A stretch of DNA of 64,000 nucleotides, taken from the IMG/VR virus record IMGVR_UViG_3300032086_003797, positions 1 to 64,000 of that record, one strand, 5' to 3'. Of this stretch, positions 8,626-64,000 are shown one piece after another. Position numbers and translations under genes: made by a program. This DNA comes from a virus. Position 1 is the first letter of the stretch, and the number at the start of each line of letters is the position of its first letter. The notes under the pieces are model-generated. The model did not search any database and had not been told where the DNA came from. It worked only from the letters and a program-made list of their open reading frames with translations.

Positions 8626-10196
8626 TGTCTCTCACCAAAAGTGAGGTAATGAAGGAAGTCATACGGTGTGGTAAAGACCCCGTATACTTCCTTTGCAATT
8701 ATGCCAAGATAACCGAGCCCATGAGGGGCTTGATACCCTTCGACTTATACCCATTTCAGAAGGATACTATTAAAGAGTTCCAAGAAAACCGCTTTAATAT
8801 TATTCTAAAAGCACGACAGTTGGGGTTATCTACATCTGTGGCAGGCTATGTCTGTTGGCTAATATTGTTTCACAGAAGCAAGAATGTTTTGGTTGTAGCA
8901 ACTAAATTGCAGAGTGCAACCAACTTGGTAAAAAAGATAAAACAAATACACAGGAACTTACCAGACTGGCTAAAGATCGCAGATATATCTATCAATAACA
9001 GAACATCGTTTGAATTGTCCAATGCATCACAAGTTAAGGCATCCTCGACTTCAGGTGATGCAGGTCGTTCTGAAGCATTGTCTTTGTTGGTGGTTGATGA
9101 AGCCGCCCACGTTGAGGGACTAGAAGAACTGTGGGCTGGCTTATATCCTACTCTATCAACTGGTGGTGCAGCCATCACTTTATCCACGCCTAACGGTGTT
9201 GGGAACTGGTTTCATAAAACATATATGGAAGCTGTCGAGGGCAAGAATGATTTCAACTTTATTAATCTTCCGTGGTCAACACACCCAGATAGAGACATGC
9301 AGTGGTTTGAAAAAGAAACCAGGAACATGTCTCCGAGAGAAATTGCGCAAGAGCTTGAGTGTAGCTTTAACGCCTCAGGCGAAACAGTCGTTTCTGGACC
9401 TTCGTTAGAGGAGATGTTTAACAAGTGTAGTGACCCATTACACAGGGCTGGCTTTGATAGGAACTACTGGATTTGGGAAGAACCACTTGATGGAGAAGAA
9501 TACCTATGTGTGGGCGACGTGGCTCGTGGCGATGGTAAAGATTACAGTACAGTTCAAGTTATAAAAACTAGCGACATGCAGCAGGTAGCAGAATACCAAG
9601 GTAAACTTACTGGGGATATGTTTGCGCCCTTGATAACCGAAATCGCAAACGAATACAATAAGGCTCTTTTGGTCATTGAGAACAACAAGGATTATGGTGT
9701 GCTTTCAAGGATCGAAGATCTAGAATACGATAACATTTACTATTCACTAAAATCAACTCACGACTATGTGGATCAGCTTACAGCGCAAGCGAATAGCGGT
9801 ATAGCAGGGTTTACAATGTCAATGAAGACTCGACCATTGGTAGTATCAAAGCTGGAAGAATTTGTAAGAAATAATATACTTACTATTAACTCCGTTAGGA
9901 CAGCCTCAGAGCTAAAGACATTTATTTGGCATAATGGTAAAGCACAAGCAATGCGTGGCTATAATGATGATTTGGTAATGGCATTAGCGATTGGTTGTTG
10001 GGTTAGGGATGTTGCGATGGCTGTAAACAAAAGGGATATAGAGTATAACAGAGCGATGCTATCAGGTATTAGTACTGCAAACAGGCAAATTAGTACTGCT
10101 ATCCCAGGAATGACTAATTATAAACAAAGAGTAAAATCTACACAAACTACCAATAATGGTATAAAATATGATATTGGCTGGATATATAAAGGATAG
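8625..10196 (+). CDS. Terminase large subunit (T4 gp17-like)
   Basis: KARQLGLST Walker A, VVDEAAH Walker B, STPNG, DVARGDGKDYS, DDLVMA nuclease motifs. Confidence 0.95.
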   Translation: MSLTKSEVMKEVIRCGKDPVYFLCNYAKITEPMRGLIPFDLYPFQKDTIKEFQENRFNIILKARQLGLSTSVAGYVCWLILFHRSKNVLVVATKLQSATNLVKKIKQIHRNLPDWLKIADISINNRTSFELSNASQVKASSTSGDAGRSEALSLLVVDEAAHVEGLEELWAGLYPTLSTGGAAITLSTPNGVGNWFHKTYMEAVEGKNDFNFINLPWSTHPDRDMQWFEKETRNMSPREIAQELECSFNASGETVVSGPSLEEMFNKCSDPLHRAGFDRNYWIWEEPLDGEEYLCVGDVARGDGKDYSTVQVIKTSDMQQVAEYQGKLTGDMFAPLITEIANEYNKALLVIENNKDYGVLSRIEDLEYDNIYYSLKSTHDYVDQLTAQANSGIAGFTMSMKTRPLVVSKLEEFVRNNILTINSVRTASELKTFIWHNGKAQAMRGYNDDLVMALAIGCWVRDVAMAVNKRDIEYNRAMLSGISTANRQISTAIPGMTNYKQRVKSTQTTNNGIKYDIGWIYKG

Positions 10197-10198
10197 AC

Positions 10199-12142
10199 AT
10201 GGCTGAAAATAATCCAAGAAATAGGCAATCGCCGCTTTTTAAACGTTTGACCCGACTCTTTAGTGGTCCAATCGTGACGTACAGGACTGGGCAGGTCAAG
10301 AAAAACCGTGCTCCAAATTATGAAAAATACACCTTCACCACATCGACAGGTAGGGAATTTAAGAAAAAGGAATATTACAATCCTTTTGAGGGTATTTACA
10401 GCAAGGTACTCAATTCTCAACAGCGAGACTTTAGGTATAATGATTTTGAGCAGATGGAGTACACTCCAGAGATTGCATCAACTTTAGATGTTTATGCAGA
10501 CGAGATAAGCACTTCATCAGATATTTCTCCCATCGTTCAAGTAGATTGCATGAACGAAGAAATAAAAATGATCATTAATACTCTGTTGTATAATGTTCTT
10601 AATGTAGAGTTCAATATGTTTGGTTGGGCTCGCAATCTATGCAAGTATGGCGATTATTATCTTTATCTTGATATAGATGATCAACTTGGTATTACAAATG
10701 TTATTCCACTGCCTGTTAAAGAGCTAGAGAGAATTGAAGGCACTGATCCAACCAATCCAAACTATGTTCAATACTTCTGGCCTGGTGCAGGTGCAGATGC
10801 TGTCACTTTCGAGAACTGGCAGGTTGCCCACTTTCGTGTTTTGGGTAATGATAAATACGTTCCTTATGGAACATCTGTTCTAGAGCCTGCACGCCGAATA
10901 TGGAGACAACTTAGCTTGCTTGAGGATGCTATGATCGCATACCGTGTTGTCCGCTCACCAGAGCGACGTGTATTTTATATTGATATTGGCAACATGCCTC
11001 CTAATGAGGTAGAGCAATATATTGAGTCGGTGAAGACTCAGATGAAGAGGGCACAGATTGTTGACGAAGACACAGGGCGTGTAGACTTACGCTATAATGC
11101 TATGAGCATTGATGAAGATTATTATATCCCAAGTCGTGGTGGTCAATCATCAAGAATCGAAACGCTACCAGGTGGTCAGTTCACTAGTGCTATTGAGGAT
11201 GTCCAATATCTTAGGGACAAGTTATTCTCTGCACTCAAGATCCCTAAGGCTTACCTAGCACAATCAGATAGCATGGAAGATAAGACCACGCTAGCACAGA
11301 AAGATATTCGATTTGCTAGAACCATACAAAGGCTCCAGAGAGTTATTATTTCTGAGCTAGAAAAAATGATTGTTGTTCACTTGTACACTCTTGGGTACCG
11401 AGGCGACGATCTAACATCATTTAAATTGTTCCTCAATAACCCATCTAGAATTGCTGAGTTGCAAGAGCTAGAACATATGAGAACTAAGTTTGACATTGCG
11501 GGTAACGCTACAGACAGTTATTTCTCTAGACGATGGGTATATAAAAACATTTTTAAACTAGATGACCATGAAATTGGTAGAGTCCAAGAAGAACAGTTCC
11601 AAGATGCTAAGCAAAAGGCTATAGTTGAAAAAGCTGCTGAATTGGCTGTCGGCGAGTATGAGGCTGCCGTTGGCGGCACAGCAGGAGAAACTGGTGATCT
11701 CGGTGGAGGCGACGACCTTGGCGGCGGAGACCTCGGAGGTGACCTTGGTGGTGATGACGCCGACACTGGTGATGACGCAGCAGCAGAAGAAGAAGAACCA
11801 GAAACTGGGGACCTTCTTTCAGAGCCAGGCATGAGGGATGATGGTTATCTAACTCCAGGCTCTAAAGGCAAGGTTTACTACCCTGTCAAAAATGCTGGGA
11901 AGGACAGAAGATCTAATAGCGGTCCCCGCAAAAGATCGTACAAGTCAAAGGCACGAGGGAAGGAAACAAATACTAAAAGAACTAACTTCCCAGGGGCACA
12001 AGGTTTAACTACTTTGGGCATCGGAGTAACTGAGAGACTAAATAAAGATGAGGTGTTGTTGAGCGAGAGCAAGAAGACAACTCTTGAAATAGATCGTTTA
12101 ATAAAGCAGATGGAGATCAAAGATGGCGACAAAAATCAATAA
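10199..12142 (+). CDS. Portal protein (T4 gp20-like)
   Basis: EDAMIAYRVVRSPERRVFYIDIGNMP; EDYYIPSR; IETLPGG. Confidence 0.95.
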   Translation: MAENNPRNRQSPLFKRLTRLFSGPIVTYRTGQVKKNRAPNYEKYTFTTSTGREFKKKEYYNPFEGIYSKVLNSQQRDFRYNDFEQMEYTPEIASTLDVYADEISTSSDISPIVQVDCMNEEIKMIINTLLYNVLNVEFNMFGWARNLCKYGDYYLYLDIDDQLGITNVIPLPVKELERIEGTDPTNPNYVQYFWPGAGADAVTFENWQVAHFRVLGNDKYVPYGTSVLEPARRIWRQLSLLEDAMIAYRVVRSPERRVFYIDIGNMPPNEVEQYIESVKTQMKRAQIVDEDTGRVDLRYNAMSIDEDYYIPSRGGQSSRIETLPGGQFTSAIEDVQYLRDKLFSALKIPKAYLAQSDSMEDKTTLAQKDIRFARTIQRLQRVIISELEKMIVVHLYTLGYRGDDLTSFKLFLNNPSRIAELQELEHMRTKFDIAGNATDSYFSRRWVYKNIFKLDDHEIGRVQEEQFQDAKQKAIVEKAAELAVGEYEAAVGGTAGETGDLGGGDDLGGGDLGGDLGGDDADTGDDAAAEEEEPETGDLLSEPGMRDDGYLTPGSKGKVYYPVKNAGKDRRSNSGPRKRSYKSKARGKETNTKRTNFPGAQGLTTLGIGVTERLNKDEVLLSESKKTTLEIDRLIKQMEIKDGDKNQ

Positions 12143-13927: not shown

Positions 13928-14524
13928 ATGACAAAGAAATACGTCTTACAAGAGTTTATGAATCTGGATTATAGCGATAGTCTTCTCACGGAAGAAGAGC
14001 GTGAGGGCAACAAGGATGGCACTCATCTTATCTTGGCAGGCAGAATTCAATCTGCTAATAAGCCAAATGGAAACATGAGGGTTTATTCGGAGAAACTCCT
14101 AAAAAGAGAGATGAAAAACTATGAAAAGTTGGTCCGTGAGCGCAGAGCAACTGGAGAATTGGACCACCCAGATCACTCAGTAGTGGAACTTAAGAATGTC
14201 AGCCACCTTGTTACTGATGTTTGGTGGGATGGTGACGATGTAATGGGTAAAATAAAGATCTTAGACACTCCCGCAGGTCAAATTGCCAAACAATTGGTCC
14301 AAGGTGGCGTTTGTTTGGGAATTTCAAGCCGTGGATTGGGTTCAACTCGCCAAGAAGGCAAATATACGATGGTAGAAGACGATTTTCAGCTTCTTTGCTT
14401 CGATTTAGTGTCTGAACCAAGCACAAGTGGCGCTTATATGGTGGCAGAAAGCAAAATTAAGACAAATTTAACCAAATCAGACCGAATTAACCGAGCATTG
14501 AACGATATTTTGGGGGATGAATGA
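13928..14524 (+). CDS. Prohead core protease (T4 gp21-like)
   Basis: GELDHP, GISSRGLGS, FDLVSEPS. Confidence 0.93.
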   Translation: MTKKYVLQEFMNLDYSDSLLTEEEREGNKDGTHLILAGRIQSANKPNGNMRVYSEKLLKREMKNYEKLVRERRATGELDHPDHSVVELKNVSHLVTDVWWDGDDVMGKIKILDTPAGQIAKQLVQGGVCLGISSRGLGSTRQEGKYTMVEDDFQLLCFDLVSEPSTSGAYMVAESKIKTNLTKSDRINRALNDILGDE

Positions 14525-14892
14525 AAAAATCGCAATTAAAAGAGCTTATTAAGGAATGTGTAAGAGAAGTAGTCTTTGAAGAGGGGGCTCTTACTAAAAT
14601 TGTGGCAGAAGTAGCCCAAGGATTCACTCAAGCAGCCCCAATTGTAGAACAGGCGCCTGCTAGACAAGTAGATCCTAAAATTAGGGAACGAATCATGCGA
14701 GAAGTGGGACCTAAGCCTGCACGGCAGCCTACAAAGGCTGAAGTCAGTCTTAAGGAGATGCCATTCTTTACAAATACAGAGCCACTAACCGAAAACAACA
14801 ACCCAGCGGGCGAAGCAGGTTTGGATATCAGCAATATCCCAGGCATGTCCCAATGGGGTAACGTATTATCTAAAATAGAGAAAGGTAGATAA
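14521..14892 (+). CDS. Head-associated protein with tag-like N-terminus
   Basis: MKKSQLKELIKECVREVVFEE. Confidence 0.65.
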   Translation: MKKSQLKELIKECVREVVFEEGALTKIVAEVAQGFTQAAPIVEQAPARQVDPKIRERIMREVGPKPARQPTKAEVSLKEMPFFTNTEPLTENNNPAGEAGLDISNIPGMSQWGNVLSKIEKGR

Positions 14893-15186
14893 ATGAGACA
14901 TCGACAAAGACGCCCACGCAAAATAAGTGGAAGAATAGAAATTTCTATAACAGACCATGGAGTTAAGAGCATTGATTCCATGGTTCGTAAGTTTAATAAG
15001 AAAGTTCGCAAAGAGGGGATCATTGAAGAGGTTAGAGAGCGTAAGCGTTTTACACCTAATAGTGTTAAGACTGCCGAGCGCAAACGAGCCAAGAGAAGGA
15101 TCGTACAGAAAATAAATCGGAAAAGAGAAGAGCTTTTTAACCCTAAAGGGAATACTTATGAAGTAAGGCGCAGGAGGAAGAAGTAA
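14893..15186 (+). CDS. rpsU: Ribosomal protein bS21 homologue
   Basis: SIDSMVRKFNKKVRKEGIIEEVRERKRFTPNSVK.AERKR matches the bS21 pattern. Confidence 0.8.
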   Translation: MRHRQRRPRKISGRIEISITDHGVKSIDSMVRKFNKKVRKEGIIEEVRERKRFTPNSVKTAERKRAKRRIVQKINRKREELFNPKGNTYEVRRRRKK

Positions 15187-15670: not shown

Positions 15671-16687
15671 ATGTCAAACCATATGTTAGAACAAGCTATT
15701 GTTGATGCAGAACAGCTAAGAGAAGCTGCCCTTAAGAGTGCTCAACAAGAAATAGTAGAGAAGTATTCAGAAGAAGTTAGGACCGCTGTGCAGCAGATCT
15801 TAGAAGAGCCCGAAGACATGGGTTTGGATATGGGTATGGAGCCAGAGGCTGAAGAAGAGTTTGCAGACGTAGAAATGTCACATATGGCAGATGATGATGC
15901 AATGATCGAAATACCGCTAGATCAACTAATCGCCCAAGCAGAGATGGAACCATCCGATGCAGATGATATGGTTGACAGAGAAGATCTGGATGTTGGTATA
16001 CCAGAGTTGGCAGACGAAGAAGAAGTTTCTACCGAGCCTGCTCCTGCCAACAGAAAAGATGATGAAGCAGAGGAACTAGACGAAGAGGTTGAGTTGAATG
16101 AAGAAGAGCTTCTTTCCACCCTCATGAATATAGTGAAGCAGGAATCTCTCGAAGTATCCGCCCCAGACTTCGCCATGGAAGAGATTACAAAAGATGAGCA
16201 AGAATCTGATGAGGAAGAAGCCGCAGAAATCAAAACGGCTGATAACTCCAGAGACGGGCAAGAAGAAGTTAAGGAAGAACTAGCTAAAAAGGATGCAGAG
16301 ATTCTAGACCTTAACGAATCAATTAACAAATTAAAGAATATATTAGCAGAGGCTAAAGAAGGGTTACAAAAACTTAATCTTTCAAATGCACGACTGCTTT
16401 ATACAAACAAGGTGCTTGGTGATACCTCCCTGAATGAGCGGCAAAAGAACAAAATTGCTGAAATGATCTCTGAGTCACGCACGGTTGATGAAGCGAAGAC
16501 GGTCTATGAGACCCTTCAAAAGACAATGGAGACGGGTCGTAAGGCTCCAAGCTCACAGTCATTGTCTGAGGCAGTTACAAGACGGTCATCTACAATAATC
16601 AGTTCTCGTAGAGAAGAAGTTTCGTCACCAAAACAAAATCCAGCGTTAAATCGTTGGGCGGTTTTAGCAGGTCTCAACAGAGACTAA
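15671..16687 (+). CDS. Prohead scaffolding protein (gp22-like)
   Basis: Acidic coiled coil directly upstream of MCP; C-terminal RWAVLAGL. Confidence 0.8.
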   Translation: MSNHMLEQAIVDAEQLREAALKSAQQEIVEKYSEEVRTAVQQILEEPEDMGLDMGMEPEAEEEFADVEMSHMADDDAMIEIPLDQLIAQAEMEPSDADDMVDREDLDVGIPELADEEEVSTEPAPANRKDDEAEELDEEVELNEEELLSTLMNIVKQESLEVSAPDFAMEEITKDEQESDEEEAAEIKTADNSRDGQEEVKEELAKKDAEILDLNESINKLKNILAEAKEGLQKLNLSNARLLYTNKVLGDTSLNERQKNKIAEMISESRTVDEAKTVYETLQKTMETGRKAPSSQSLSEAVTRRSSTIISSRREEVSSPKQNPALNRWAVLAGLNRD

Positions 16688-16711: not shown

Positions 16712-18523
16712 ATGAGCGTAATAGAAAAGCTTACAGAAGGCATTCGAGCACGTTCCTTAGCATCAGAAGGCGAAGCTCTTCTCACCAAGTGGGAAAAGAC
16801 TGGTCTTCTAGAAGGTCTAGCAGACGACACTGCCCGTAACGGCATGGCACGTTTGTTGGAGAACCAAGCTGCACAGCTACTTAAAGAAGCAAGCAGCATG
16901 GGCAACCAAGATGTTGAGGGATTTGCCGCAGTTGCATTCCCAATTGTACGTCGTGTATTCGGCGGGTTACTTGCACAGGACCTAGTTTCAGTGCAACCAA
17001 TGAGTCTACCAAGTGGTCTCATATTCTTCATGGACTTCGTATACAGCGGAGACCGTGGTGGTATCAGTGATAGCCAAGGCAAAGCAGCAGCAGGTGCTGT
17101 TGATGGCCAGTCCATCTACGGCGGTGGTCGTGTTGGTTCGGACCTCCGTCTAGGCGTTCAGCTTGCAGACGGTGCCACATCAGCAGGCGCTAACGACCCA
17201 TTGCTCGCAGAGCGTGGTCTTTATAACTTGAACAGTGGCTACTCAGCACCTACAGCATCACTCGCATCAGTCGATTGTGCCCTCATTGCTGTTGGTACCG
17301 CATCGAGTGATACCGTTGCAGCTACAGATATTGTATTCGTAGATTCCGCATACGGTTCCACCGCAGAGGACTTTAATAAGCTCCTCCGCTTTGATCCTGA
17401 TCTTTCAGGTTCGGTTGTTACAGTTTCATCGATTCTTGTCTCTGACTTGACTAACTTTGACACAAACAACCTCACAGCACTTGATCTTGCATTTGATCAT
17501 GGTACTCAGGTCCGACGCTTGACCCAGCTTGACCCACTAAGTGGTTCGACAGGTCTTATCGTCGTCGCTCGTACTACGGGTTCCGCAGATGGCGATGACG
17601 CTGCTGGCTTCCACGCCGAAGTTGACAGCATGGATCGTGGTGTTGCTGAAAACCGTGTTCCAGCCGCTACCTTTGCTGTCGTTGACAACATTGGTCAAGG
17701 CAGCGAAGCAGGTTCAGTCCTTGCTGCTAGCAGCGGATTGCCCTTTGAAAATGAAGCTGACATCCCAGAAATCGATCTTAAGATTGATTCCACGGCTGTT
17801 ACGGCTCAGACTCGTAAGCTCAAAGCCAAGTGGAGCCCAGAGCTTGCACAGGACTTGAATGCTTATCATAACCTCGACGCTGAAGTCGAGCTTACAAGTG
17901 TTCTTTCTGAGCACATTGGTTTGGAAATTGACCAAGAGATCCTTAAGGACCTCATCAACGGCGCAACTGCTGGTACTCGTTACTGGAGCCGCCGCCCAGG
18001 TCAATTCTTGAATCGTGAGACAGGCAAAGACATTACAACAAGTCTTGCCCCTGACTTTACAGGTACTGTTTCAGAATGGTATGAAACCCTCCTTGAGAAT
18101 ATCAATGATGTTTCATCTCTCATTCATCGTAAGACCCTCCGTGGTGGCGCTAACTTCATCGTTACATCACCAGAGGTTGCTGCTATTCTTGAGTTCACCA
18201 GTGGGTTCCGTGCGGACGTCGCTGGCGATTCAGAAGCTAACAGTGGTAACTGGGGTGCTTCCAAGGCTGGAACCATCAGTCGCAAGATGGACGTTATGGT
18301 AGATCCATACTTCCCACGCAACGTGGTTCTCGTTGGTCGCAAGGGCAATAGCTTCCTCGAAAGTGGCTATGTTTATGCTCCTTACGTCCCACTACAAGTC
18401 ACGCCTACCATCTTTGGTACCGAAGACTTCGTGCCCCGCAAGGGCGTGATGACTCGCTATGCTAAGAAGATGGTTCGCCCAGACATGTATGGTCTAGTTG
18501 TCTGCTTGCACCTAACTGACTGA
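16712..18523 (+). CDS. Major capsid protein (T4 gp23-like)
   Basis: LLENQ, VQPMSLPSGLIF, TRKLKAKWSPELAQDLNAYH, YAPYVPL, GVMTRYA. Confidence 0.97.
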   Translation: MSVIEKLTEGIRARSLASEGEALLTKWEKTGLLEGLADDTARNGMARLLENQAAQLLKEASSMGNQDVEGFAAVAFPIVRRVFGGLLAQDLVSVQPMSLPSGLIFFMDFVYSGDRGGISDSQGKAAAGAVDGQSIYGGGRVGSDLRLGVQLADGATSAGANDPLLAERGLYNLNSGYSAPTASLASVDCALIAVGTASSDTVAATDIVFVDSAYGSTAEDFNKLLRFDPDLSGSVVTVSSILVSDLTNFDTNNLTALDLAFDHGTQVRRLTQLDPLSGSTGLIVVARTTGSADGDDAAGFHAEVDSMDRGVAENRVPAATFAVVDNIGQGSEAGSVLAASSGLPFENEADIPEIDLKIDSTAVTAQTRKLKAKWSPELAQDLNAYHNLDAEVELTSVLSEHIGLEIDQEILKDLINGATAGTRYWSRRPGQFLNRETGKDITTSLAPDFTGTVSEWYETLLENINDVSSLIHRKTLRGGANFIVTSPEVAAILEFTSGFRADVAGDSEANSGNWGASKAGTISRKMDVMVDPYFPRNVVLVGRKGNSFLESGYVYAPYVPLQVTPTIFGTEDFVPRKGVMTRYAKKMVRPDMYGLVVCLHLTD

Positions 18524-49632: not shown

Positions 49633-49658
49633 ATAAAAAAGCAAAGTAAAGGTTGCAC

Positions 49659-52600
49659 ATGACAAAACGAATCGAGAGCAAGATTCCTTTTGTGGGACTC
49701 CACGCCCACTCAGGACTTTCCCCGTTTGATGGCTTAGGTATGCCAGGCGAACATATGGACTTCGCCTTTGAGAATGGGATGAATGCCCACTCGCTTACCG
49801 ACCACGGACACATGAATGGCTTATCCTTCCAGGTTGAGCACCTAAAGAAGATGAGGGCAGATGGAAAAGACTTCAAAGCAATCTATGGTTGTGAAGCTTA
49901 CTTTATCAAGTCACACAAGAAGTGGCGTCAACAGTACGAAGAACACAAAGCCAGTAGCAAGCGGCAAAAGAAAGAAGAGTTTGCTATGGTTGTTGAGGAT
50001 GAGAACCGCCAGAAGAAGTTCAACCCTCTAAACATCCGCAGGCATTTGGTTCTATTGGTTCAGAATCAGGTTGGATTGAGCAACCTCTTCAAGCTTGTAT
50101 CGGACAGTTACCGTCCCGAGAATTTTTATCGCTACCCCCGTATCGACTTTGAGATGTTGGACAAATACAACGAGGGCTTGCTTGTTAGCAGTGCTTGTAT
50201 GTCAGGTCCGCTCTTTGGGGACTTTTGGAAGCACCGTGATCCAGTCACTCACGAGTACGACGCAGACATGGTTTTAGCATCGATGCGGCAGACGATCGGG
50301 GAGTTCCAGGATATCTTTGGCGACAGGTTCTACGGGGAGATCCAGTGGAACGACATTCCAGAGCAGCACATTGTCAATGACCTAATCATCCAAGCCTGTA
50401 CCGAGATGGGCGCAGAGGTTATCAGTACATCCGACAGCCATTACCCACGACCAGAATTGTGGAAGGACCGTGAGATGTACCGCCGTATTGGGTGGGCGGG
50501 CAAAGCTCCTTATGAAGATCAGGACGCTCATAGGCTGCCAGAGTCGGTAGAAGAGATCGGCTATGAGTTATATCCTCGCAACGGGGATCAGATGTGGGAT
50601 GCCTACAAGAAGTACGCAGGTCGATCTAAGGTAGAGTATGATGATGACTTTGTGTTGGCTAGCATTGAGCGCACACATCAGATCGCCTTTGATCGTATCG
50701 AGGACTTCCTACCAGACAGCGAAGTTCGCCTACCAGATTTTGTTGTGCCAGAGGGTAGCACGGCAATGCAGACCCTAACAAAGCAGGCACTCAAGGGGCT
50801 AAAAGATAAAGACCTTAAAGACCAAGAGTATATCGATCGCCTCAAGTATGAGTTGTCGGTTATTAAAGATCGAGGCTTCGCTCAATACTTCTTGACGATG
50901 AAGGCTATTAGCGACAGGGCGCAAGAGGAGATGCTTGTGGGTCTCGGTCGAGGCTCGGCAGCAGGATCATTATTATCCTACGTCCTAGACATTACGCAGG
51001 TCGACCCAATCAAGTATGCTCTCCAGTTTGAGAGGTTCCTAACCAAGGGCGGCAAAGGCTACCCCGACATCGACTTTGATGTTGAGGAGCCAATGCAACT
51101 CAAGGAGCAACTCGCAGAGGAGTGGGGGAAGATCGGCGTCAATGTTGTCCCCATCAGCAACTTCAACACGCTCCAGTTGCGCTCACTCATCAAAGACATT
51201 GGGAAGTTCTATGGCGTCCCGTTTGCAGAGGTGAACAAAGTCACAGGCGTCATGATGAGCGAAGCTACCCCTAAAGCCAAAGCAGCCCACGGTCAGACTG
51301 CGGGCGTTTACGTCCCGACATTTGAGGAAGTGAAGAAGTACAGCGAAACACTCCAGGCGTTCTTCGACAAGTACCCCGAGATCGCAACGCATGTTGACAA
51401 TCTTTTTGGCAATGTTCGTAGTGTGAGTAGGCACGCTGGTGGCATCGTTGTGGCAGAGAACTTGGATAAGCACATGCCATTGATCAACTCAGGTGGTGTG
51501 ATGCAAACCCCGTGGAGCGAGGGGCAGAACGTCAGGCACCTTGAGCCGCTCGGTTTTATTAAGTTTGACCTTCTCGGACTCTCAACTCTCCGTATGATTT
51601 CGGGAGCAATTCGACATGTGCTCAAGCGCCATCACGGCATTGAAGAGCCGACCTTTGAACAGGTCCGTGCCTTTTATGATGAGAAATTACACCCCGATGT
51701 AATCGACTTCGATGACCAAGAAGTCTGGAAAAATATTTTCCATAAAGGTAAGTGGGCGGGCGTTTTCCAGATGACCAGCGGACCAGCCCAGGCTTTCTGC
51801 CAAGAGGCAAAACCAGAGTCGCTTATGGACTTTGCAGCCATCACGGCAATCTTTAGACCAGGACCTTTGTCGGCAAAAGCGGATAAGATGTATATTGCCA
51901 ATAAGAGCAATCCAGATCAGGTAGAGTATAAGCACCCGCTTATCGAGGAGGTGCTAGGGGATACATACGGGTTACTGGTGTTCCAAGAGCAGTTGGCTAT
52001 GCTGGCTCACAAGCTGGGAGATAACATCTCGCTAGACGAAGGGAATCTCCTCCGCAAGGTTCTTACCAAGCGTGGCACAGGCAAAGACAGCGTAAGAGAT
52101 AAGATCTACGCTAAGTTTGTCAAAGGCTGCAATGACAAGGGGCTATCGGAGCAGGTTGCTAAAGACCTTTGGGCAAAGATGGTATTCTTCTCAGGCTACG
52201 GCTTCAACTTGTCACATGCAGTATCTTACGGAGCGGTGTCGTTTCAGTGCGCTTGGTTGGCACACTATTATCCGACCGAATGGATCGCAGCGTTCTTGGA
52301 CAAGGAGCCAGAGAAGCGCAAGATGGCAGCAATCAACACAGCCAAGAAGTTTGGCTTCAACATCGTACCAGCCAGCATCAACAAGTCAGGAATGGTTTGG
52401 GAGATCTCCGAGGATGGGCAAAACCTCATCCAGCCGTTGACTGCGATCAAGGGGTTGGGATCAACAGCTATCCAGCAAATCTTGGACCACCGACCTTTCA
52501 ATACGATTGAGGAGTTTATTTTCAATGAAAACATTACTTACTCCAAACTAAACAAGAAGGCACTGGACGTCCTGGTCCGAAGCCAGGCATTGAATGAGTT

Positions 52601-53087
52601 GATGGATGATCGCTTCACAGGGATGAAACACTTTTGGTCTTCTGTGGCAGTCGATCGCCCACGCAAGGAGAAGAACCTAATTGAGAATATTGACGCATAC
52701 AAAGAAGAAGGTAGCTTTACAAAGGAAGAAAAGATAGAACATCTAACAACCTTGACGGGAATCTATCCTATCGATCTAATCATGGATGATTTTACAAAGC
52801 AAGCTCTCATGAATAAGGGTTGCCCTCCCATCTCCGAGTTCGACCCCGAGCTTATCCTTTGTTGGTTCATTCCAAGAGAGATCAAGGTCAAGAAGACGAA
52901 GCACGGCAAGAAATATTATATTGTGTCAGTGACAGATCACAACGGAGCAGATGAGCAGATCAAATGCTGGGGTGTAAAAGACACAGACATTATTAAAACT
53001 AATCGTATTTACGTTGGCAAGCTTAAACATGAACCACGATGGGGATTTAGTACTTACAGCGTCAAGCATAATCTTAGGCTTTTATAA
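49659..53087 (+). CDS. dnaE: DNA polymerase III alpha subunit (family C)
   Basis: PHP motifs HAHS/TDHG/SDSHY; GRGSAAGS; PDIDFD; HAGG; KFDLLGL; YGFNLSHA. Confidence 0.96.
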   Translation: MTKRIESKIPFVGLHAHSGLSPFDGLGMPGEHMDFAFENGMNAHSLTDHGHMNGLSFQVEHLKKMRADGKDFKAIYGCEAYFIKSHKKWRQQYEEHKASSKRQKKEEFAMVVEDENRQKKFNPLNIRRHLVLLVQNQVGLSNLFKLVSDSYRPENFYRYPRIDFEMLDKYNEGLLVSSACMSGPLFGDFWKHRDPVTHEYDADMVLASMRQTIGEFQDIFGDRFYGEIQWNDIPEQHIVNDLIIQACTEMGAEVISTSDSHYPRPELWKDREMYRRIGWAGKAPYEDQDAHRLPESVEEIGYELYPRNGDQMWDAYKKYAGRSKVEYDDDFVLASIERTHQIAFDRIEDFLPDSEVRLPDFVVPEGSTAMQTLTKQALKGLKDKDLKDQEYIDRLKYELSVIKDRGFAQYFLTMKAISDRAQEEMLVGLGRGSAAGSLLSYVLDITQVDPIKYALQFERFLTKGGKGYPDIDFDVEEPMQLKEQLAEEWGKIGVNVVPISNFNTLQLRSLIKDIGKFYGVPFAEVNKVTGVMMSEATPKAKAAHGQTAGVYVPTFEEVKKYSETLQAFFDKYPEIATHVDNLFGNVRSVSRHAGGIVVAENLDKHMPLINSGGVMQTPWSEGQNVRHLEPLGFIKFDLLGLSTLRMISGAIRHVLKRHHGIEEPTFEQVRAFYDEKLHPDVIDFDDQEVWKNIFHKGKWAGVFQMTSGPAQAFCQEAKPESLMDFAAITAIFRPGPLSAKADKMYIANKSNPDQVEYKHPLIEEVLGDTYGLLVFQEQLAMLAHKLGDNISLDEGNLLRKVLTKRGTGKDSVRDKIYAKFVKGCNDKGLSEQVAKDLWAKMVFFSGYGFNLSHAVSYGAVSFQCAWLAHYYPTEWIAAFLDKEPEKRKMAAINTAKKFGFNIVPASINKSGMVWEISEDGQNLIQPLTAIKGLGSTAIQQILDHRPFNTIEEFIFNENITYSKLNKKALDVLVRSQALNELMDDRFTGMKHFWSSVAVDRPRKEKNLIENIDAYKEEGSFTKEEKIEHLTTLTGIYPIDLIMDDFTKQALMNKGCPPISEFDPELILCWFIPREIKVKKTKHGKKYYIVSVTDHNGADEQIKCWGVKDTDIIKTNRIYVGKLKHEPRWGFSTYSVKHNLRLL

Positions 53088-53096: not shown

Positions 53097-53105
53097 ACTA
53101 TTTAT
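53097..53105 (+). promoter_or_regulatory. Putative late promoter ACTATTTAT
   Basis: Heads the MKITK-tag cluster. Confidence 0.65.
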
Positions 53106-53149
53106 ATTGTATTACCGCACCCGCAAGGTGCCCAAAGGGGATTTATCAA

Positions 53150-53389
53150 ATGAAGATTACTAAAGAACAACTCAAACAAATCATTAAAGAAGAAGTTGCT
53201 AGAGAGATGAACGAAGAGTACAGCACACAAATGGAAGTACTGTTCCAAGAGCTTATGCGAGTAGCCCAAGAGATGGGTGGAACACCAGAGATTATGGATG
53301 ATCTTCTAGCTATGCAGAATCGCCATGGTGGAACAAAGCCAAGCGAAACTGGTGCTGGCGATATAGACATGAGCAAGATGGACATCTAA
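53150..53389 (+). CDS. MKITK-tag protein (putative internal head protein)
   Basis: MKITKEQLKQIIKEE. Confidence 0.75.
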   Translation: MKITKEQLKQIIKEEVAREMNEEYSTQMEVLFQELMRVAQEMGGTPEIMDDLLAMQNRHGGTKPSETGAGDIDMSKMDI

Positions 53390-53390
53390 G

Positions 53391-53660
53391 ATGAAGATTA
53401 CAAAGCAGCAACTAAAACAAATTATTAAAGAAGAGGTTGGTCGCTACGCAGACCTTGGTAAAAACCCTCACGCAGACCAGCCACACGTTGCGGCTTTAAT
53501 GGAGATGCGTCAAAAGATCGGTTCACTTTCAAACGACATTGTTGATAAGTTGGGCGGCAGCGTTCCGATTCAAGATGCACAGAGTTATCTTGATGATGCT
53601 GCTAGGAACATCTCTAAGGCAATGGACGAGATCATGTTAGCATTGGAGATGGACTCATGA
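53391..53660 (+). CDS. MKITK-tag protein
   Basis: MKITKQQLKQIIKEE. Confidence 0.75.
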   Translation: MKITKQQLKQIIKEEVGRYADLGKNPHADQPHVAALMEMRQKIGSLSNDIVDKLGGSVPIQDAQSYLDDAARNISKAMDEIMLALEMDS

Positions 53661-53758
53661 AAAACTTTTTACACAAATTAGTTAACTTATTCAATAGCAG
53701 CCACTGTTGCTGCTGCTGTGGCTGTTGCGCTTGCACTAGCTGCGAAGGGGCATGTTAG
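53657..53758 (+). CDS. 33-aa Cys-rich peptide (metallothionein-like?)
   Basis: MKNFLHKLVNLFNSSHCCCCCGCCACTSCEGAC; ATGA overlap upstream, TAG-ATG abutting downstream. Confidence 0.65.
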   Translation: MKNFLHKLVNLFNSSHCCCCCGCCACTSCEGAC

Positions 53759-54130
53759 ATGAAAGAACTATTATCAGAGTGGCGCAAGTATATTACAGAA
53801 GTCAGGTATTCTGGCAACCAGGGCGATCGACAAAAAGAAGTTGTCGAAGCAATGCTCAAAGAGCTTGGTTTGGTCGGTGACGAAAACACAGACAAAGCAA
53901 CATACGCATACACCTACACGCTCAGGTCTGTAGCAAAAAATCAGAACCTTAACGACAAGCAGAGAGCGGCGCTAGAAGACCCTCGCTTCAAGAAAGCTAC
54001 TGGCATGTTCATGGAGTTCAAGAAGGAACTAGAGGGACAAGATGCGGACCCAGAGATAATTTTTGAAACTGCAACAATGCTAACCAAAGAGGCAGGTAAT
54101 CGTCTATCTGACGAAGATGATTTAGGCTGA
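53759..54130 (+). CDS. Hypothetical protein with alternative N-terminal helix tag
   Basis: MKELLSEWRKYITE. Confidence 0.65.
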   Translation: MKELLSEWRKYITEVRYSGNQGDRQKEVVEAMLKELGLVGDENTDKATYAYTYTLRSVAKNQNLNDKQRAALEDPRFKKATGMFMEFKKELEGQDADPEIIFETATMLTKEAGNRLSDEDDLG

Positions 54131-54140
54131 GGGATAACAA

Positions 54141-54380
54141 ATGAAAATTACAAAACAACAATTACAACAAATAATCAAAGAGGAACTCCTCAAGGAACGG
54201 CTGGACGAAGAACTTGAGGTTGTTATGCAACACCTAGAGAAGGCACAGGAACTTCTTGGAGATTATATTAGAGAACAGGGGGGTGACTACCATCCGCTTA
54301 TGGACGCAGAAGATCAACTTAGGACCGTAATTGGTGACGTTGGTAGAAGCGGCAGCGAAGGCGCTGGATTCGGATTTTAA
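54141..54380 (+). CDS. MKITK-tag protein
   Basis: MKITKQQLQQIIKEE. Confidence 0.75.
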   Translation: MKITKQQLQQIIKEELLKERLDEELEVVMQHLEKAQELLGDYIREQGGDYHPLMDAEDQLRTVIGDVGRSGSEGAGFGF

Positions 54381-54381
54381 A

Positions 54382-54558
54382 ATGAAAATCACCAAAGACC
54401 AACTGCGAAATATTATTAAAGAAGAAATCTCAGATCGTGACAAAGATACGATGAATGATGTTATAGCAGAGCTTAAGAAAGCCGTGCAGGCACATAAGTC
54501 CCAGCATGAAAGACTACAAGCTATCCTAGACAGACTAGTAGATAGCGAGGGAGATTAA
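54382..54558 (+). CDS. MKITK-tag protein
   Basis: MKITKDQLRNIIKEE. Confidence 0.75.
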   Translation: MKITKDQLRNIIKEEISDRDKDTMNDVIAELKKAVQAHKSQHERLQAILDRLVDSEGD

Positions 54559-54559
54559 A

Positions 54560-55210
54560 GTGAAAATCACAAAAACTCAACTACGAAATATTATTAGACA
54601 AGAGTTAGCAGAAGAAACCCAAGGCGAGATGAACCTGGCGGGGATCAATAAGACGATCCATGCTGGCTTGTTAGATCGTGGCAGAGACAACGACCTTTAT
54701 GATGCACTGGTCAAAGCCGCTGTAGAATATGAAGAACACTTAACTAAAGTGCTGGCGAGTATTATTCCAGATATGAAGAGCAAGCCAATTGCTCACATAG
54801 AGTCAATCACCACAGGTGTTTTGAGGTATGATATATATTACCCAGAGCATATTGAGATAGAACTCAAGGCTATTCCAAACCGAGGCGACACATCTAAAAC
54901 CGTATTCAACCTTAGTGTACAGTTCCCCTTTGGTGATGATAAGCTCGAAGACGAGAAATATGATGCCCTCAAGAAACTAAGAGGCGGTCATGGAAACATC
55001 GGCAGCGTAAAGGGCGTGTTGAATCTATTGGCACAAGGCGGCAGCCTTTATAAGAGCCAGACCAAAGGCTTGGCAGCCGAGCCAGAAGGTCAAGGCGAAC
55101 TGCCATTCGGCGAAAGCAAAAAACGCCATATTAAAATCTCAAATAACACACTGAATAAAATTATTCAGGAAGAGCTTAGAAATGTTTTATTGGAGAAGGG
55201 GAGCAAGTAG
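54560..55210 (+). CDS. MKITK-tag protein with tags at both termini
   Basis: N-terminal MKITKTQLRNIIRQE; C-terminal IKISNNTLNKIIQEE. Confidence 0.75.
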   Translation: MKITKTQLRNIIRQELAEETQGEMNLAGINKTIHAGLLDRGRDNDLYDALVKAAVEYEEHLTKVLASIIPDMKSKPIAHIESITTGVLRYDIYYPEHIEIELKAIPNRGDTSKTVFNLSVQFPFGDDKLEDEKYDALKKLRGGHGNIGSVKGVLNLLAQGGSLYKSQTKGLAAEPEGQGELPFGESKKRHIKISNNTLNKIIQEELRNVLLEKGSK

Positions 55211-55213
55211 AAC

Positions 55214-56131
55214 ATGAACATCAAACAACTCAGAGAGTTAATTATAGAAACACAAAGAGAGATGCTACAGGAGCGTCAAAGCTTTTTGCTTGATCAGCCT
55301 GGCGTAGTCAATGAAGAACTACTGGATGAGGGTGTTTATGATAAGGGCATTCTCAAAGCAGTCTTCACAGCGGGCGGACCAGGCAGTGGTAAATCTTATG
55401 TGGCTGACGTAATGTTTGATGCCAGAGAAGCTGGCAAGGATAAGCAGTTTGATGCTGCCTCGTTTGTTGGTCGCTATGGGCTTAAATATGTTAATAGCGA
55501 CAACTTGTTTGAGATAGGCCTCAAGAAGATGGGTATCCCACTCGCTGATCTTGGTGCCATCTCGCAAGCTGCCAAAGAAGGCGGCGAGTATAAAGGACAA
55601 GATGCAAAAGAACTAGCACAACAGATTGGTCTGCTGGGTAAGCGAGCCGACTCTACCCGAGCCATCGCCAAGGGTAAGCTAGCAAAGCTTCAGGGCTATT
55701 ATGCCGCTGGTCGCCTGGGGATGCTGATTGATGGTACTGGCAAAGATTATAATAAGATGGTGCAAAAAAGGCAACGCTTGATTGACCTTGGGTACGACAC
55801 CTACATGATCTTTGTGGACACCTCCCTAGATCGTGCTCTAAAGCAAAACGCAAAGAGAGAAAGAAAGTTAGACCCTGAAGAAGTACAGAAGATGTGGCAG
55901 CAAGTTCAGGACAATAAGGAAAACTATCAAGAGCTATTTGGCGCTAATAATTTTACAATCGTTGTCAACAATGAGCCAGTGCCACCAACCAAGGAAGCAA
56001 CAAGATCGGTGCAGAGATTCGCCGAGGCTCCAGTTGAAAACCCTCTGGGTCAATCTTGGATGAACGTACAGCTTGCCGCCAAGGATACTTCGGGTGACGC
56101 ACCCTCAGAAGAACCTTCCGAAGAAGAATAA
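55214..56131 (+). CDS. Zeta-toxin/AAA_33-like P-loop kinase with N-terminal tag
   Basis: AGGPGSGKS, VNSD, LIDGTG, N..RER. Confidence 0.75.
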   Translation: MNIKQLRELIIETQREMLQERQSFLLDQPGVVNEELLDEGVYDKGILKAVFTAGGPGSGKSYVADVMFDAREAGKDKQFDAASFVGRYGLKYVNSDNLFEIGLKKMGIPLADLGAISQAAKEGGEYKGQDAKELAQQIGLLGKRADSTRAIAKGKLAKLQGYYAAGRLGMLIDGTGKDYNKMVQKRQRLIDLGYDTYMIFVDTSLDRALKQNAKRERKLDPEEVQKMWQQVQDNKENYQELFGANNFTIVVNNEPVPPTKEATRSVQRFAEAPVENPLGQSWMNVQLAAKDTSGDAPSEEPSEEE

Positions 56132-57790: not shown

Positions 57791-57846
57791 TAACAGTTGA
57801 CGAAGACGTCATCTAAGTATATCTGATTTATTAAGGAGTTGAATAA

Positions 57847-58481: not shown

Positions 58482-58859
58482 ATGAGAGCAAGTGTAAGAG
58501 ATATTTTGAACCTGCTAAAGTTTGTAGGAGCTAGTGACGATGATAAGGTTGTCACCGCTGAAAAGCTTTTTGTAGCCAACAGGGTTCTTAATATAGCATA
58601 TGAGAAAATCGATAAAGGGCACATGGAGGTGGCAGACTTATCCCAGTATATCCAAGCCCTGATAGAGTACCGAGATGGGACGCTAGAATTTAATTTTGAA
58701 ATCGATGAACAGACAGGCGAAGATAAGGTATACTTTACACGCCAAGAGCAATCTATATACAGTAAGTACGCTGGTCAATTCAGGAACAGCAATCTTTATA
58801 ACGACTTGAAGTCAAGCAAAGGAAAATCTACACATGCCGAAGAAGACGAAGAAGAATAA
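58482..58859 (+). CDS. Hypothetical protein
   Basis: ORF directly upstream of the clpP-like gene. Confidence 0.55.
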   Translation: MRASVRDILNLLKFVGASDDDKVVTAEKLFVANRVLNIAYEKIDKGHMEVADLSQYIQALIEYRDGTLEFNFEIDEQTGEDKVYFTRQEQSIYSKYAGQFRNSNLYNDLKSSKGKSTHAEEDEEE

Positions 58860-59577
58860 GGAAGAGGTCGAAGTACTAATTCCAGAATCCGATGCAGAAC
58901 TTGATGCTGCTTTGGAAATTGTTTCAATTGAGGACATGACTGAGGAAGAGATCAGGGAGGTAGTCCCTACATTAGTAGAGGTGGCTACTGAGAAGAGGAC
59001 CCCACGAGCTATTAACTTCTGTGGTAGTCTTGACGAAGAGGCAGCCTCCGCTATCATTTCAGCTATGATCTATCACAACTATAACAATAGTCTTGTTATG
59101 ATCAACACCGAGAAGACAAAGCAATACATGGCTGTAAAGCCTATGCAATTCTATATCTCAACATTTGGTGGCAACGCCGCAGACATGTTTGGCATCCACG
59201 ACTTGATGTTGTCAATGAGGTCGTCAACACCTATTGAAACAGTAGGACTCGGAAAGGTTATGTCTGCTGGTGTTCTGCTGCTGGCTTCAGGTGCTGAAGG
59301 CTGTAGGTTCATTGGTAGGAACACAAGAGTCATGATCCACTCGCTTCGTGCAGGACATCACGGTGCCATGCACGAACTGGAGACTGAGTACGAAGAAACC
59401 AGGTGGCTACAGGATCAATACATTCAGGCTCTAGCTAGCGTAACTAACATGAATAAGAGAATGATCAAGAAGATGATGGAAAGGAAGACAAATGTTTATA
59501 TCAATGCTAAGCAGGCTATTGAATTTGGTATTGCCGATCGAATCCTCGATCAGTCCTACTGGGATGTCCCAGAGTAA
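58834..59577 (+). CDS. clpP: ClpP-like S14 protease
   Basis: YISTFGG, GKVMSAGVLLL, MIH, A..A.EFG.AD. Confidence 0.85.
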   Translation: MPKKTKKNKEEVEVLIPESDAELDAALEIVSIEDMTEEEIREVVPTLVEVATEKRTPRAINFCGSLDEEAASAIISAMIYHNYNNSLVMINTEKTKQYMAVKPMQFYISTFGGNAADMFGIHDLMLSMRSSTPIETVGLGKVMSAGVLLLASGAEGCRFIGRNTRVMIHSLRAGHHGAMHELETEYEETRWLQDQYIQALASVTNMNKRMIKKMMERKTNVYINAKQAIEFGIADRILDQSYWDVPE

Positions 59578-60205: not shown

Positions 60206-60239
60206 AAAACTATTTATACATTGAGGAGTACTTTTTACC

Positions 60240-60524
60240 ATGAACACATTTCAAATTACTAAAGCTAGGCTCAAGCAAATTATTAAGGAAGAGCAGCAAA
60301 AGCTCGATGAGGAGAGCCAGAGCTTGGAAGAAAAGTCAACTAAGAAGTATGACGACAACCCTAAGCTTAAAGGTGATCAAGATGAATTGCCCGACGGGCT
60401 CCAGAAAGCTATCATTGATAAAGAAGGCGGTGACGCCGATGAGGAAGAAGAAGAGAAGAACGAAAGTTTGGAACTTGAAGCTATGATCCGACAGGAAATA
60501 TTAGCAGCCTTAAACGGAGAATAA
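60240..60524 (+). CDS. MKITK-tag protein
   Basis: FQITKARLKQIIKEE; late motif ACTATTTAT at 60209-60217. Confidence 0.7.
   Translation: MNTFQITKARLKQIIKEEQQKLDEESQSLEEKSTKKYDDNPKLKGDQDELPDGLQKAIIDKEGGDADEEEEEKNESLELEAMIRQEILAALNGE

Positions 60525-62530: not shown

Positions 62531-64000
<1,470 letters not shown>

What the first reader, a model, noticed from the sequence alone, without database searches (positions are those of the whole stretch)
53097..56131. Modular capsid-targeting tag (MKITKxQLxxIIKEE) fused to unrelated cargo: a putative packaged-protein delivery system
Seen: five genes (53150, 53391, 54141, 54382, 54560) share a 15-aa amphipathic N-terminal helix followed by unrelated sequence. 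Variants occur at 55214 (MNIKQLRELIIE), 60240 (FQITKARLKQIIKEE), 14521 (MKKSQLKELIKE, next to the prohead protease) and at the C-terminus of 54560. The DNA copies differ at many synonymous positions, so the peptide itself is under selection. The cluster follows the same ACTATTTA motif as the capsid operon. Each tag ends in, or is followed by, (I/L)-x-E. Known: T4 internal proteins carry a short N-terminal capsid-targeting sequence that gp21 removes by cutting after (L/I)-x-E. Inference: this is a portable address label that loads varied proteins into the prohead for injection at infection, possibly counter-defence or host-takeover effectors.
Basis: partly seen in the sequence, partly recalled or inferred. 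Interest (0 to 1): 0.85.

Follow-up and report, generated by a model that had tools for sequence, protein, structure and literature searches.

The report
Head-loading leader tags on phage cargo
An uncultured marine T4-like phage puts one of two short leader peptides, each ending in the cutting motif of its own head protease, on many unrelated small proteins. This is most likely an expanded version of phage T4's way of loading proteins into the capsid for delivery with the DNA, but nothing has been measured.

Summary
The five genes at 53150-55210 share a 14-16-residue N-terminal leader (tag A) on unalignable bodies.

The 174.6-kb genome has about 23 tagged genes. Tag A heads about 15,000 protein clusters in public data, almost all from phage contigs.

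My best reading (about 0.65) is a T4-style capsid-targeting sequence that the phage's gp21-type (S77) prohead protease removes. The support is indirect:
- Both tags end in [I/L]-x-E at residues 12-14.
- The predicted capsid-protein cut site has the same local pattern.
- Tag-like N-termini sit on conserved head-module proteins next to the protease, also in a cultured Flavobacterium phage.
- Four tagged loci follow the promoter-like motif that precedes scaffold, adaptor, sheath and baseplate genes.
- In other phages, tagged genes cluster beside terminase and portal genes.
- Cargo includes an ADP-ribosyltransferase and protamine-like basic proteins.

Two rivals were tested and weakened: a ClpP degron and a radical-SAM leader. 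Packaging, cutting and injection have not been observed.

This scan has reached the same reading before, on this genome's second array and on other marine phages. I class it as a new variant of a known kind.

The parts
53097..53104 (+). ACTATTTA promoter-like motif in front of the tagged cluster, followed by a hairpin
   Evidence: 9 copies in the window, all on the + strand, against 2.5 expected. Conserved before the cluster in L001-L004 despite diverged flanks. The same motif precedes scaffold, adaptor, sheath, baseplate hub and baseplate wedge genes.
53150..53389 (+). Tag A gene 1, 79 aa, acidic helical cargo
   Evidence: orthologues in L001-L005
53391..53660 (+). Tag A gene 2, 89 aa
   Evidence: The cargo is 77-93% conserved in orthologues. 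The AF2 model gives three helices at low confidence.
53657..53758 (+). Untagged 33-aa Cys-rich ORF embedded in the array
   Evidence: Conserved in all five related loci
53759..54130 (+).
   Evidence: N-terminal clustering; tag B profile
54141..54380 (+). Tag A gene 3, 79 aa
54382..54558 (+). Tag A gene 4, 58 aa
54560..55210 (+). Tag A gene 5, 216 aa, with a conserved tag-like helix near its C-terminus (about 55130-55174)
   Evidence: In relatives P0030-P0034 a further domain of about 130 aa follows this internal tag. The AF2 model is low confidence.
55214..56131 (+). Zeta-toxin/AAA_33-type P-loop kinase with a degenerate tag A at its N-terminus
   Evidence: Pfam and PHROGs; ESM Atlas. In L003-L005 it is fused behind a canonical tag A plus an extra domain.
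60209..60524 (+). Second ACTATTTA motif and a 94-aa gene whose tag A starts at residue 5
   Evidence: motif and gene conserved in L001-L005
13928..14524 (+). gp21-type prohead protease (Peptidase_S77), the presumed cutter
   Evidence: PF03420 at 2e-27. Matches T4 gp21 structure 5JBL; His and Ser are present at the catalytic positions. [I/L]-x-E ends at residue 9, as in T4 gp21.
14521..14892 (+). Conserved 123-aa head-module protein with a tag-A-like N-terminus
   Evidence: Orthologues with similar N-termini lie near the protease in L125, L127, L129, L130, L132 and Mel-JY01. [I/L]-x-E density is 4 times background.
15671..16687 (+). Acidic gp22-like scaffold, preceded by ACTATTTA at 15616
   Evidence: Position and composition; 13 [I/L]-x-E sites, 3 times background
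16712..18523 (+). gp23-type major capsid protein; predicted maturation cut after Glu59
   Evidence: PF07068. The alignment to T4 gp23 places the T4 Glu65/Ala66 site on L57-K58-E59/A60, conserved in five relatives.

Best explanation
The cluster is one of several arrays of cargo genes. Each gene begins with one of two interchangeable 14-residue leaders. Tag A is MKITKxQLxxIIKEE; tag B is MKKLLxEWRKFLxE.

The most likely mechanism runs as follows:
1. The genes are transcribed together with the structural genes.
2. The leader docks the new protein onto the scaffolding core while the prohead is built.
3. The phage's gp21-type S77 protease cuts after the [I/L]-x-E that ends the leader.
4. The freed cargo stays in the head and probably enters the next host with the DNA.

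Shown here:
- the leader is modular and under selection at the peptide level;
- it is restricted to phages with an S77 protease;
- its end matches the predicted capsid cut site;
- it is linked to head and packaging genes and to a structural-gene promoter motif.

Inferred: docking, cutting, retention, ejection and what the cargo does.
For: 1. Modularity. In 124 loci plus this genome there are 452 tag hits, 415 starting at Met. The 399 distinct cargoes fall into 265 BLAST clusters, 210 of them singletons. A profile search finds 15,333 cluster representatives at E<=0.001, and 147 of the top 150 hold the tag.
2. Peptide-level selection.
3. Cutting motif. [ILVM]-x-E sits at residues 12-14 in 215 of 222 tag A copies not forced by my search pattern, and in 34 of 37 tag B copies. 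The background rate is 0.012 per residue. In tag B, conservation stops right after Glu14.
4. Capsid cut site. T4's gp23 cut site aligns to QLLKE|A in this capsid protein. The tag ends QIIKE|E.
5. Protease. An S77 protease is present in 12 of 14 tag-bearing contigs. The two without it are 11-24% complete fragments.
6. Head-module proteins. Tag-like N-termini sit on conserved head-module proteins next to the protease here and in distant relatives. These include cultured Flavobacterium phage immuto, for both leader types.
7. Promoter motif. The ACTATTTA-type motif precedes four tagged loci as well as scaffold, adaptor, sheath and baseplate hub and wedge genes.
8. Neighbours. A census of 119 tag loci finds TerL in 55, portal in 49 and protease in 21, against DNA polymerase III alpha in 4 and ClpP in 3. 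In the 20 loci from contigs of 98 kb or more, TerL is in 6 against about 1 expected.
9. Cargo. It includes an ART-PolyVal ADP-ribosyltransferase above the Pfam cut-off and two hyper-basic Lys/Arg proteins. It also includes YkuD, GNAT and Zeta-type kinase domains.
10. Turnover. The slot holds different cargo sets in L001-L005.
11. Precedent. The T4 mechanism is reviewed in PMC9026906 and PMC3012670.
Against: - There are no proteomic, expression or biochemical data. The tools for expression evidence were closed.
- The tag A helix continues past Glu14 (Glu15 and a hydrophobic residue at 16), so it is less sharply bounded than tag B or the T4 sequence.
- About 80% of cargoes are acidic (median pI 4.7, proteome 6.1), unlike T4's basic internal proteins.
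- The tags have no sequence similarity to the T4 capsid targeting sequence.
- A phage ClpP co-occurs in 5 of 5 marine tag genomes tested.
- The promoter motif is called late only because of the genes it precedes.
- IMG/VR favours contigs with hallmark genes, which inflates the TerL and portal linkage in short contigs.
- Both AlphaFold models were too weak to show whether the tag packs against the cargo.
Confidence: 0.65

Rival explanations
1. The tags do target proteins to the prohead core, but the cargo is not delivered. These would be accessory core, scaffold or DNA-condensing components that are degraded, expelled or act only inside the head.
For: - Most cargoes are small, acidic and helical, like scaffold proteins.
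- The conserved head-module protein at 14521 carries a similar N-terminus and many [I/L]-x-E sites.
- T4 core proteins gp22, gp67 and gp68 are cut up and mostly leave the head.
Against: - Hundreds of unrelated, rapidly exchanged cargo families fit conflict effectors better than assembly parts.
- The enzyme cargoes (ADP-ribosyltransferase, kinase, YkuD, GNAT) have no obvious role inside a capsid.
Confidence: 0.15
2. The leader is a generic amphipathic interaction helix that binds some common partner outside the capsid, from phage or host. It is neither cleaved nor involved in packaging.
For: - The tag is a predicted helix that runs on into the body of tag A proteins.
- A similar helix occurs once, at chance level (E=3), in an early-region gene of Pectobacterium phage PM2.
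Against: This reading does not explain:
- why two unrelated leaders both end in [I/L]-x-E at residues 12-14;
- why the tag end mirrors the predicted capsid cut site;
- why head-module proteins carry it;
- why the arrays sit beside terminase and portal genes and behind the structural-gene motif.

The neighbour census found no recurrent non-structural partner.
Confidence: 0.12
3. The repeat is mainly a DNA-level recombination junction that lets gene cassettes be swapped, and the peptide is incidental.
For: - Relatives differ by whole-gene gains, losses and re-orderings at tag boundaries.
- In-frame fusions retain internal tags.
Against: - Third-codon positions are only 51% identical while the peptide is conserved: 52 synonymous against 4 non-synonymous codon pairs.
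- Selection therefore acts on the peptide.
- Recombination at the repeat may well occur in addition; the two readings are compatible.
Confidence: 0.04
4. The leader is a recognition sequence for another enzyme: either a degron for the phage ClpP-type protease, or a RiPP-like leader for a modifying enzyme such as a radical-SAM maturase.
For: - ClpP is encoded at 58834-59577 and in 5 of 5 marine tag genomes tested.
- A Cys-rich mini-ORF sits in the array.
Against: - There is no radical-SAM gene in this 95%-complete genome.
- Cultured phage immuto has the tags but no ClpP. Mel-JY01 has ClpP but no tag A.
- ClpP lies near only 3 of 119 tag loci and the kinase near only 1.
Confidence: 0.04

Closest known systems
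[quoted passage not shown]
   Same: - A short N-terminal leader is shared by otherwise unrelated proteins.
- The leader ends in L/I-x-E.
- The phage has a T4-type S77 protease, portal and capsid protein.
- The cargo loci are hypervariable between relatives.
   Different: - The leaders are 14 residues, not 10, with no sequence similarity to MKTYQEFIAE.
- Two leader types occur in one genome.
- There are about 23 cargo genes per genome instead of 3 or 4, and thousands of cargo families overall.
- Most cargo is acidic rather than basic.
- Internal tags occur in fused proteins.
- No experimental evidence exists here.
T4 Alt, the packaged and injected ADP-ribosyltransferase processed by gp21
   Same: A tag B gene in the second array (L148:5010-5543) has an ADP-ribosyltransferase domain (PF18760). 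This matches the idea of an enzyme effector carrying a clip-off propeptide.
   Different: - It belongs to a different ART clade (ART-PolyVal, not Alt/VIP2).
- It lies outside the reported cluster.
- Its activity and packaging are untested.
Inner-body and ejection proteins of phiKZ, 201phi2-1 and SPN3US, processed by gp21-like proteases (PMC9026906, PMC5694885)
   Same: Many head proteins are cut after Glu at a short motif by a diverged S77-type protease, and large protein loads travel in the capsid.
   Different: Those phages cut at S/A/G-x-E, and no single portable N-terminal leader is described for them. Here the motif is I/L-x-E, as in T4, and the leader is modular.
Polyvalent proteins of phages and conjugative elements (Iyer et al. 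2017, PMC5512222)
   Same: They are predicted virion-delivered early effectors that combine disparate enzyme domains, including ART-PolyVal.
   Different: Here the domains are mostly separate small genes, each with its own leader, rather than one giant polypeptide. Some relatives do fuse two to four tagged units.

Membership tests
T4-type capsid-targeting / internal-protein system | A gp21-type (Peptidase_S77) prohead protease with catalytic His and Ser in the same genome | tested here: met
   PF03420 at 2e-27. The alignment to 5JBL and to T4 gp21 shows His and Ser in place. S77 is present in 12 of 14 tag-bearing contigs.
T4-type capsid-targeting / internal-protein system | A short N-terminal propeptide shared by otherwise unrelated proteins | tested here: met
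T4-type capsid-targeting / internal-protein system | The propeptide ends in the protease motif L/I-x-E | tested here: met
   The same local pattern occurs at the predicted capsid-protein cut site.
T4-type capsid-targeting / internal-protein system | Sequence homology to the T4 targeting sequence | tested here: not met
   The T4 sequence finds only T-even-type phages. Tag A finds nothing in T-evens beyond one chance-level hit. This is an analogue, not a homologue.
T4-type capsid-targeting / internal-protein system | Late expression together with head genes | tested here: inconclusive
T4-type capsid-targeting / internal-protein system | Cleavage of the leader by the protease, presence of cargo in virions, ejection into the host | not testable with these tools
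   This needs virion proteomics and biochemistry.
T4-type capsid-targeting / internal-protein system | Hypervariable cargo loci between close relatives | tested here: met
   The slot holds 5-9 tagged genes of differing families in L001-L005.
RiPP-like leader served by a radical-SAM maturase | A co-encoded radical-SAM/SPASM enzyme | tested here: not met
   No PF04055 match in the 95%-complete genome. The neighbour census found no such enzyme.
ClpXP/ClpAP N-terminal degron | Obligate co-occurrence with the phage ClpP | tested here: not met
   Immuto has the tags without ClpP, and Mel-JY01 has ClpP without tag A. ClpP lies near 3 of 119 tag loci. It is present in 5 of 5 marine genomes, so it is not fully excluded.
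PeSL-type mobile regulatory cassettes of T4-type phages (PMC2839356) | Conservation at the DNA level of a non-coding promoter and stem-loop repeat | tested here: not met
   The repeat is coding, and its third positions are only 51% identical.

The most novel reading that the evidence does not exclude
Marine T4-like phages use a small set of interchangeable clip-off leaders as a general protein-delivery system. The thousands of tagged, mostly unannotated cargo families would then be a large untapped catalogue of proteins injected with phage DNA, such as anti-defence factors, DNA mimics and host-takeover enzymes. The two leaders might sort cargo into different fates or copy numbers.
Probability: 0.3. 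Interest if true: 0.85.

Novelty: new variant of a known kind. Interest (0 to 1): 0.72.

Why it matters
If the reading is right, a 14-residue leader marks which proteins ocean phages carry into their hosts. About 15,000 mostly dark-matter protein clusters would become candidate first-strike effectors, found by a simple sequence rule.

It would also show that T4's capsid-targeting trick is not a T-even curiosity. It would be a widespread, expanded and modular strategy.

The tags could also serve as portable packaging signals for engineering. A cultured phage with related tags, Flavobacterium phage vB_FspM_immuto, makes the idea directly testable.

Tried and rejected
- **Pfam and PHROGs on the cluster's proteins.** No family matched apart from the kinase.
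- **blastn and tblastn against cultured phages.** No close relative exists. The best capsid-protein matches are below 46% identity.
- **AlphaFold2 of the 216-aa and 89-aa cargoes.** Mean pLDDT was 50 and 63, too weak for fold searches or to judge whether the tag packs on the cargo. I therefore ran no fold search.
- **ESM Atlas.** It gave nothing for the 216-aa protein.
- **Full-text search for the motif letters.** No paper matched, and I found no description of such tags in marine phages.
- **Radical-SAM leader rival.** Rejected.
- **ClpP degron rival.** Weakened by a double dissociation.
- **P-loop kinase as an obligate partner.** Rejected: it lies near 1 of 119 loci.
- **Multi-tag fused proteins.** They are not strong evidence for polyprotein cleavage. 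The internal tags keep the Shine-Dalgarno-derived residues and Met of a former gene start, so they may still be translated separately.
Full report
**What the window is.** The window is the first 64 kb of a 174,625-bp uncultured phage genome that is 95% complete. Almost all genes lie on the + strand.

It has a T4-type head module:
- large terminase at 8625-10196;
- gp20 portal at 10199-12142 (PF07230);
- Peptidase_S77 prohead protease at 13928-14524 (PF03420, 2e-27);
- a 123-aa protein at 14521-14892;
- ribosomal protein S21;
- an acidic scaffold-like protein at 15671-16687;
- a gp23 capsid protein at 16712-18523.

The protease aligns to T4 gp21 (PDB 5JBL), with His and Ser at the catalytic positions. 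No cultured phage is close. The best capsid-protein matches are below 46% identity: Microcystis phage Mel-JY01, Flavobacterium phage immuto and Rhodothermus RM378.

**The observation.** The genes at 53150, 53391, 54141, 54382 and 54560 all start with tag A, MKITKxQLxxIIKEE, followed by bodies that do not align.
- A profile of the five copies scores them at E 3e-10 to 5e-8 against every six-frame ORF of the genome. It also finds copies at 60255, 164885, 165247, 173449 and 163847, while the unrelated background starts above E 3.
- At the ten conserved codons, the five copies give 44 identical, 52 synonymous and only 4 non-synonymous codon pairs. Third positions are 51% identical against 83% for positions 1 and 2. 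Selection therefore acts on the peptide.
- An unbiased comparison of all N-termini found a second leader, tag B, MKKLLxEWRKFLxE. It occurs on 53759, inside the reported cluster, and on about nine genes at 164-170 kb.
- In total about 23 genes carry one of the two tags.

**Modularity and spread.**
- *Local turnover.* In five related contigs, the slot between DNA polymerase III alpha and the P-loop kinase holds 5-9 tagged genes of partly different families and order.
- *Viral contigs.* A degenerate DNA pattern for tag A hit more than 119 stretches of IMG/VR.
- *Cellular genomes.* The same pattern hit only 8 stretches, on 5 metagenome-bin contigs, among 185,579 prokaryote species.
- *Cargo diversity.* In the fetched loci there are 452 tag hits, 415 starting at Met. 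The 399 distinct cargoes fall into 265 BLAST clusters, 210 of them singletons.
- *Global census.* A profile search of 1.84 billion cluster representatives gave 15,333 hits at E<=0.001. Of the top 150, 147 hold the tag and 105 hold two to four copies. Only the top 150 were inspected, so the total is an upper estimate.
- *Cargo annotation.* Pfam recognises almost none of the cargo. Of 117 representatives it found one YkuD, one FliG_C and one GNAT domain.

**Evidence that ties the tags to the head protease.**
- *Cutting motif.* T4 gp21 cuts after L/I-x-E. In the 10-residue T4 targeting sequence MKTYQEFIAE, residues 8 and 10 are needed for processing (PMC9026906). Here both tags, unrelated to each other, carry [ILVM]-x-E at residues 12-14. 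This holds in 215 of 222 tag A copies not forced by my pattern and in 34 of 37 tag B copies. The background is 0.012 per residue. In tag B, conservation ends abruptly after Glu14.
- *Capsid cut site.* Aligning the capsid protein and five relatives with T4 gp23 puts the T4 Glu65/Ala66 site on QLLKE|A (Glu59). Tag A ends QIIKE|E.
- *Core proteins.* [I/L]-x-E density is 3 times background in the scaffold and 4 times background in the 14521 protein. The protease itself has the motif ending at residue 9, as T4 gp21 does.

**Evidence that ties the tags to head assembly.**
- *Head-module proteins.* The 14521 protein, next to the protease, has a tag-A-like N-terminus. So do its counterparts near the protease in jumbo and other relatives and in Mel-JY01.
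- *Cultured phage.* Flavobacterium phage immuto has a tag-A-like leader on three dispersed genes and on a 73-aa gene between portal and protease. A second, tag-B-like leader sits on three genes and, in a looser form, on the 75-aa gene right after the protease.
- *Protease co-occurrence.* All nine tag-bearing contigs of 146-293 kb have an S77 protease, as do three of five smaller fragments.
- *Neighbour census.* An unbiased census of 119 tag loci (1.0 Mb) found these most frequent companions: large terminase (55 loci), portal (49), two head-module families (33 and 23), SbcCD (26) and the protease (21). DNA polymerase III alpha appeared in 4, ClpP in 3 and the kinase in 1.
- *Bias check.* IMG/VR favours contigs with hallmark genes, so I repeated the census on 20 loci from contigs of 98 kb or more. 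Terminase and portal were each in 6, against about 1 expected, while sheath was in 0 and polymerase in 1.

**Expression signal.**
- ACTATTTA occurs 9 times in the window, all on the + strand, against 2.5 expected.
- With one degenerate position on each side, it occurs 21 times on the + strand and 7 on the - strand genome-wide.
- It lies 20-70 bases before these genes: scaffold, head-tail adaptor, tail sheath, baseplate hub, a baseplate wedge subunit, a 3,706-aa ORF and PhoH.
- It also precedes four tagged loci: the 53150 cluster, 60240, the 163847 array and 173449.
- It is conserved before the cluster in L001-L004 although the flanks differ.
- This points to co-expression with structural genes. 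The timing itself is inferred.

**Cargo.**
- *This cluster.* Bodies are small, acidic and predicted to be helical. The 216-aa protein has a conserved tag-like helix near its C-terminus that is followed by another domain in some relatives. The kinase is of the Zeta-toxin/AAA_33 type.
- *Second array.* One tag B protein matches ART-PolyVal (PF18760, 1.3e-7, above the cut-off). Two tag A proteins are protamine-like Lys/Arg-rich. These recall T4 Alt and the basic internal proteins (PMC5512222).
- *Overall charge.* Cargo is nonetheless acidic overall, with median pI 4.7 against 6.1 for the proteome. This differs from T4.

**Rivals tested.**
It is excluded here because the genome has no radical-SAM gene.
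- *ClpP degron.* ClpP is in 5 of 5 marine tag genomes. However, immuto has tags without ClpP and Mel-JY01 has ClpP without tag A, and ClpP is rarely nearby.
- *Pure DNA recombination junction.* This does not fit the synonymous divergence, although cassette exchange at the repeat probably happens too.
- *Generic interaction helix.* This cannot be excluded, but it leaves the protease-motif, capsid-site and head-module links unexplained.

**Verdict.** The capsid-targeting reading is the best supported, at about 0.65. Docking, cutting, packaging and injection are all still inferred.

The mechanism is known from T4. What is new is the unrelated pair of leaders, their presence on conserved core proteins, the number of cargoes per genome and the thousands of cargo families.

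Earlier notes of this scan reached the same reading for this genome's second array and for other marine phages. I treated those notes as leads, not as evidence.

Two tools (look-up of encoding contigs, the look-up of sequencing runs) were closed, and both structure models were too weak to use.

Noticed in passing
window 53657-53758: A 33-residue ORF with ten Cys in its last 17 residues, translationally coupled within the array. It is conserved in all five related loci, sometimes as the first gene after the promoter motif. It carries no tag. It could be a metal or redox peptide or a small precursor peptide.
   Followed up: partly
window 53110-53135 and 57797-57815; L001-L004 equivalents: Short hairpins lie directly downstream of the ACTATTTA motifs. 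Their stems differ between relatives but stay complementary, which suggests a 5' stem-loop on the transcripts.
   Followed up: no
window 14893-15186: A ribosomal protein S21 homologue (PF01165) lies inside the head module, between the protease-adjacent protein and the scaffold. Microcystis phage Mel-JY01 has the same arrangement.
   Followed up: no
window 58834-59577: A ClpP-family protease with an extra N-terminal stretch of about 85 residues. ClpP homologues are present in 5 of 5 related marine genomes tested and in Mel-JY01, but not in Flavobacterium phage immuto.
   Followed up: partly
L148:2247-2948 (genome 165247-165948) and proteins P0027, P0029-P0031: A basic module of about 36 residues with two Cys follows the tag in an array-2 protein. 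The same module is inserted between the tag and the body in relatives of the 54560 family, so cargo bodies are themselves mosaics.
   Followed up: no
L148:1610-1888 and 1885-2250 (genome 164610-165250): Two tag A proteins are dominated by runs of Lys and Arg (protamine-like). One shares a short Cys-containing motif with immuto gp084 (record 111184-111654).
   Followed up: no
L166:2498-2680 (Pectobacterium phage PM2 gp097): A 60-aa protein in the early nrdC region of a T-even-type phage starts with a helix resembling tag A. The match is at chance level (E=3) and is a single copy.
   Followed up: partly
window 49653-53087 and 62531-63472: The phage encodes a full-length DNA polymerase III alpha subunit just upstream of the cluster, and a Mom-like DNA modification protein downstream.
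   Followed up: no
L148:7248-8324 (genome 170248-171324): A 358-aa protein behind another ACTATTTA motif has a tag-like start shifted by three residues. It may be a further leader variant.
   Followed up: no
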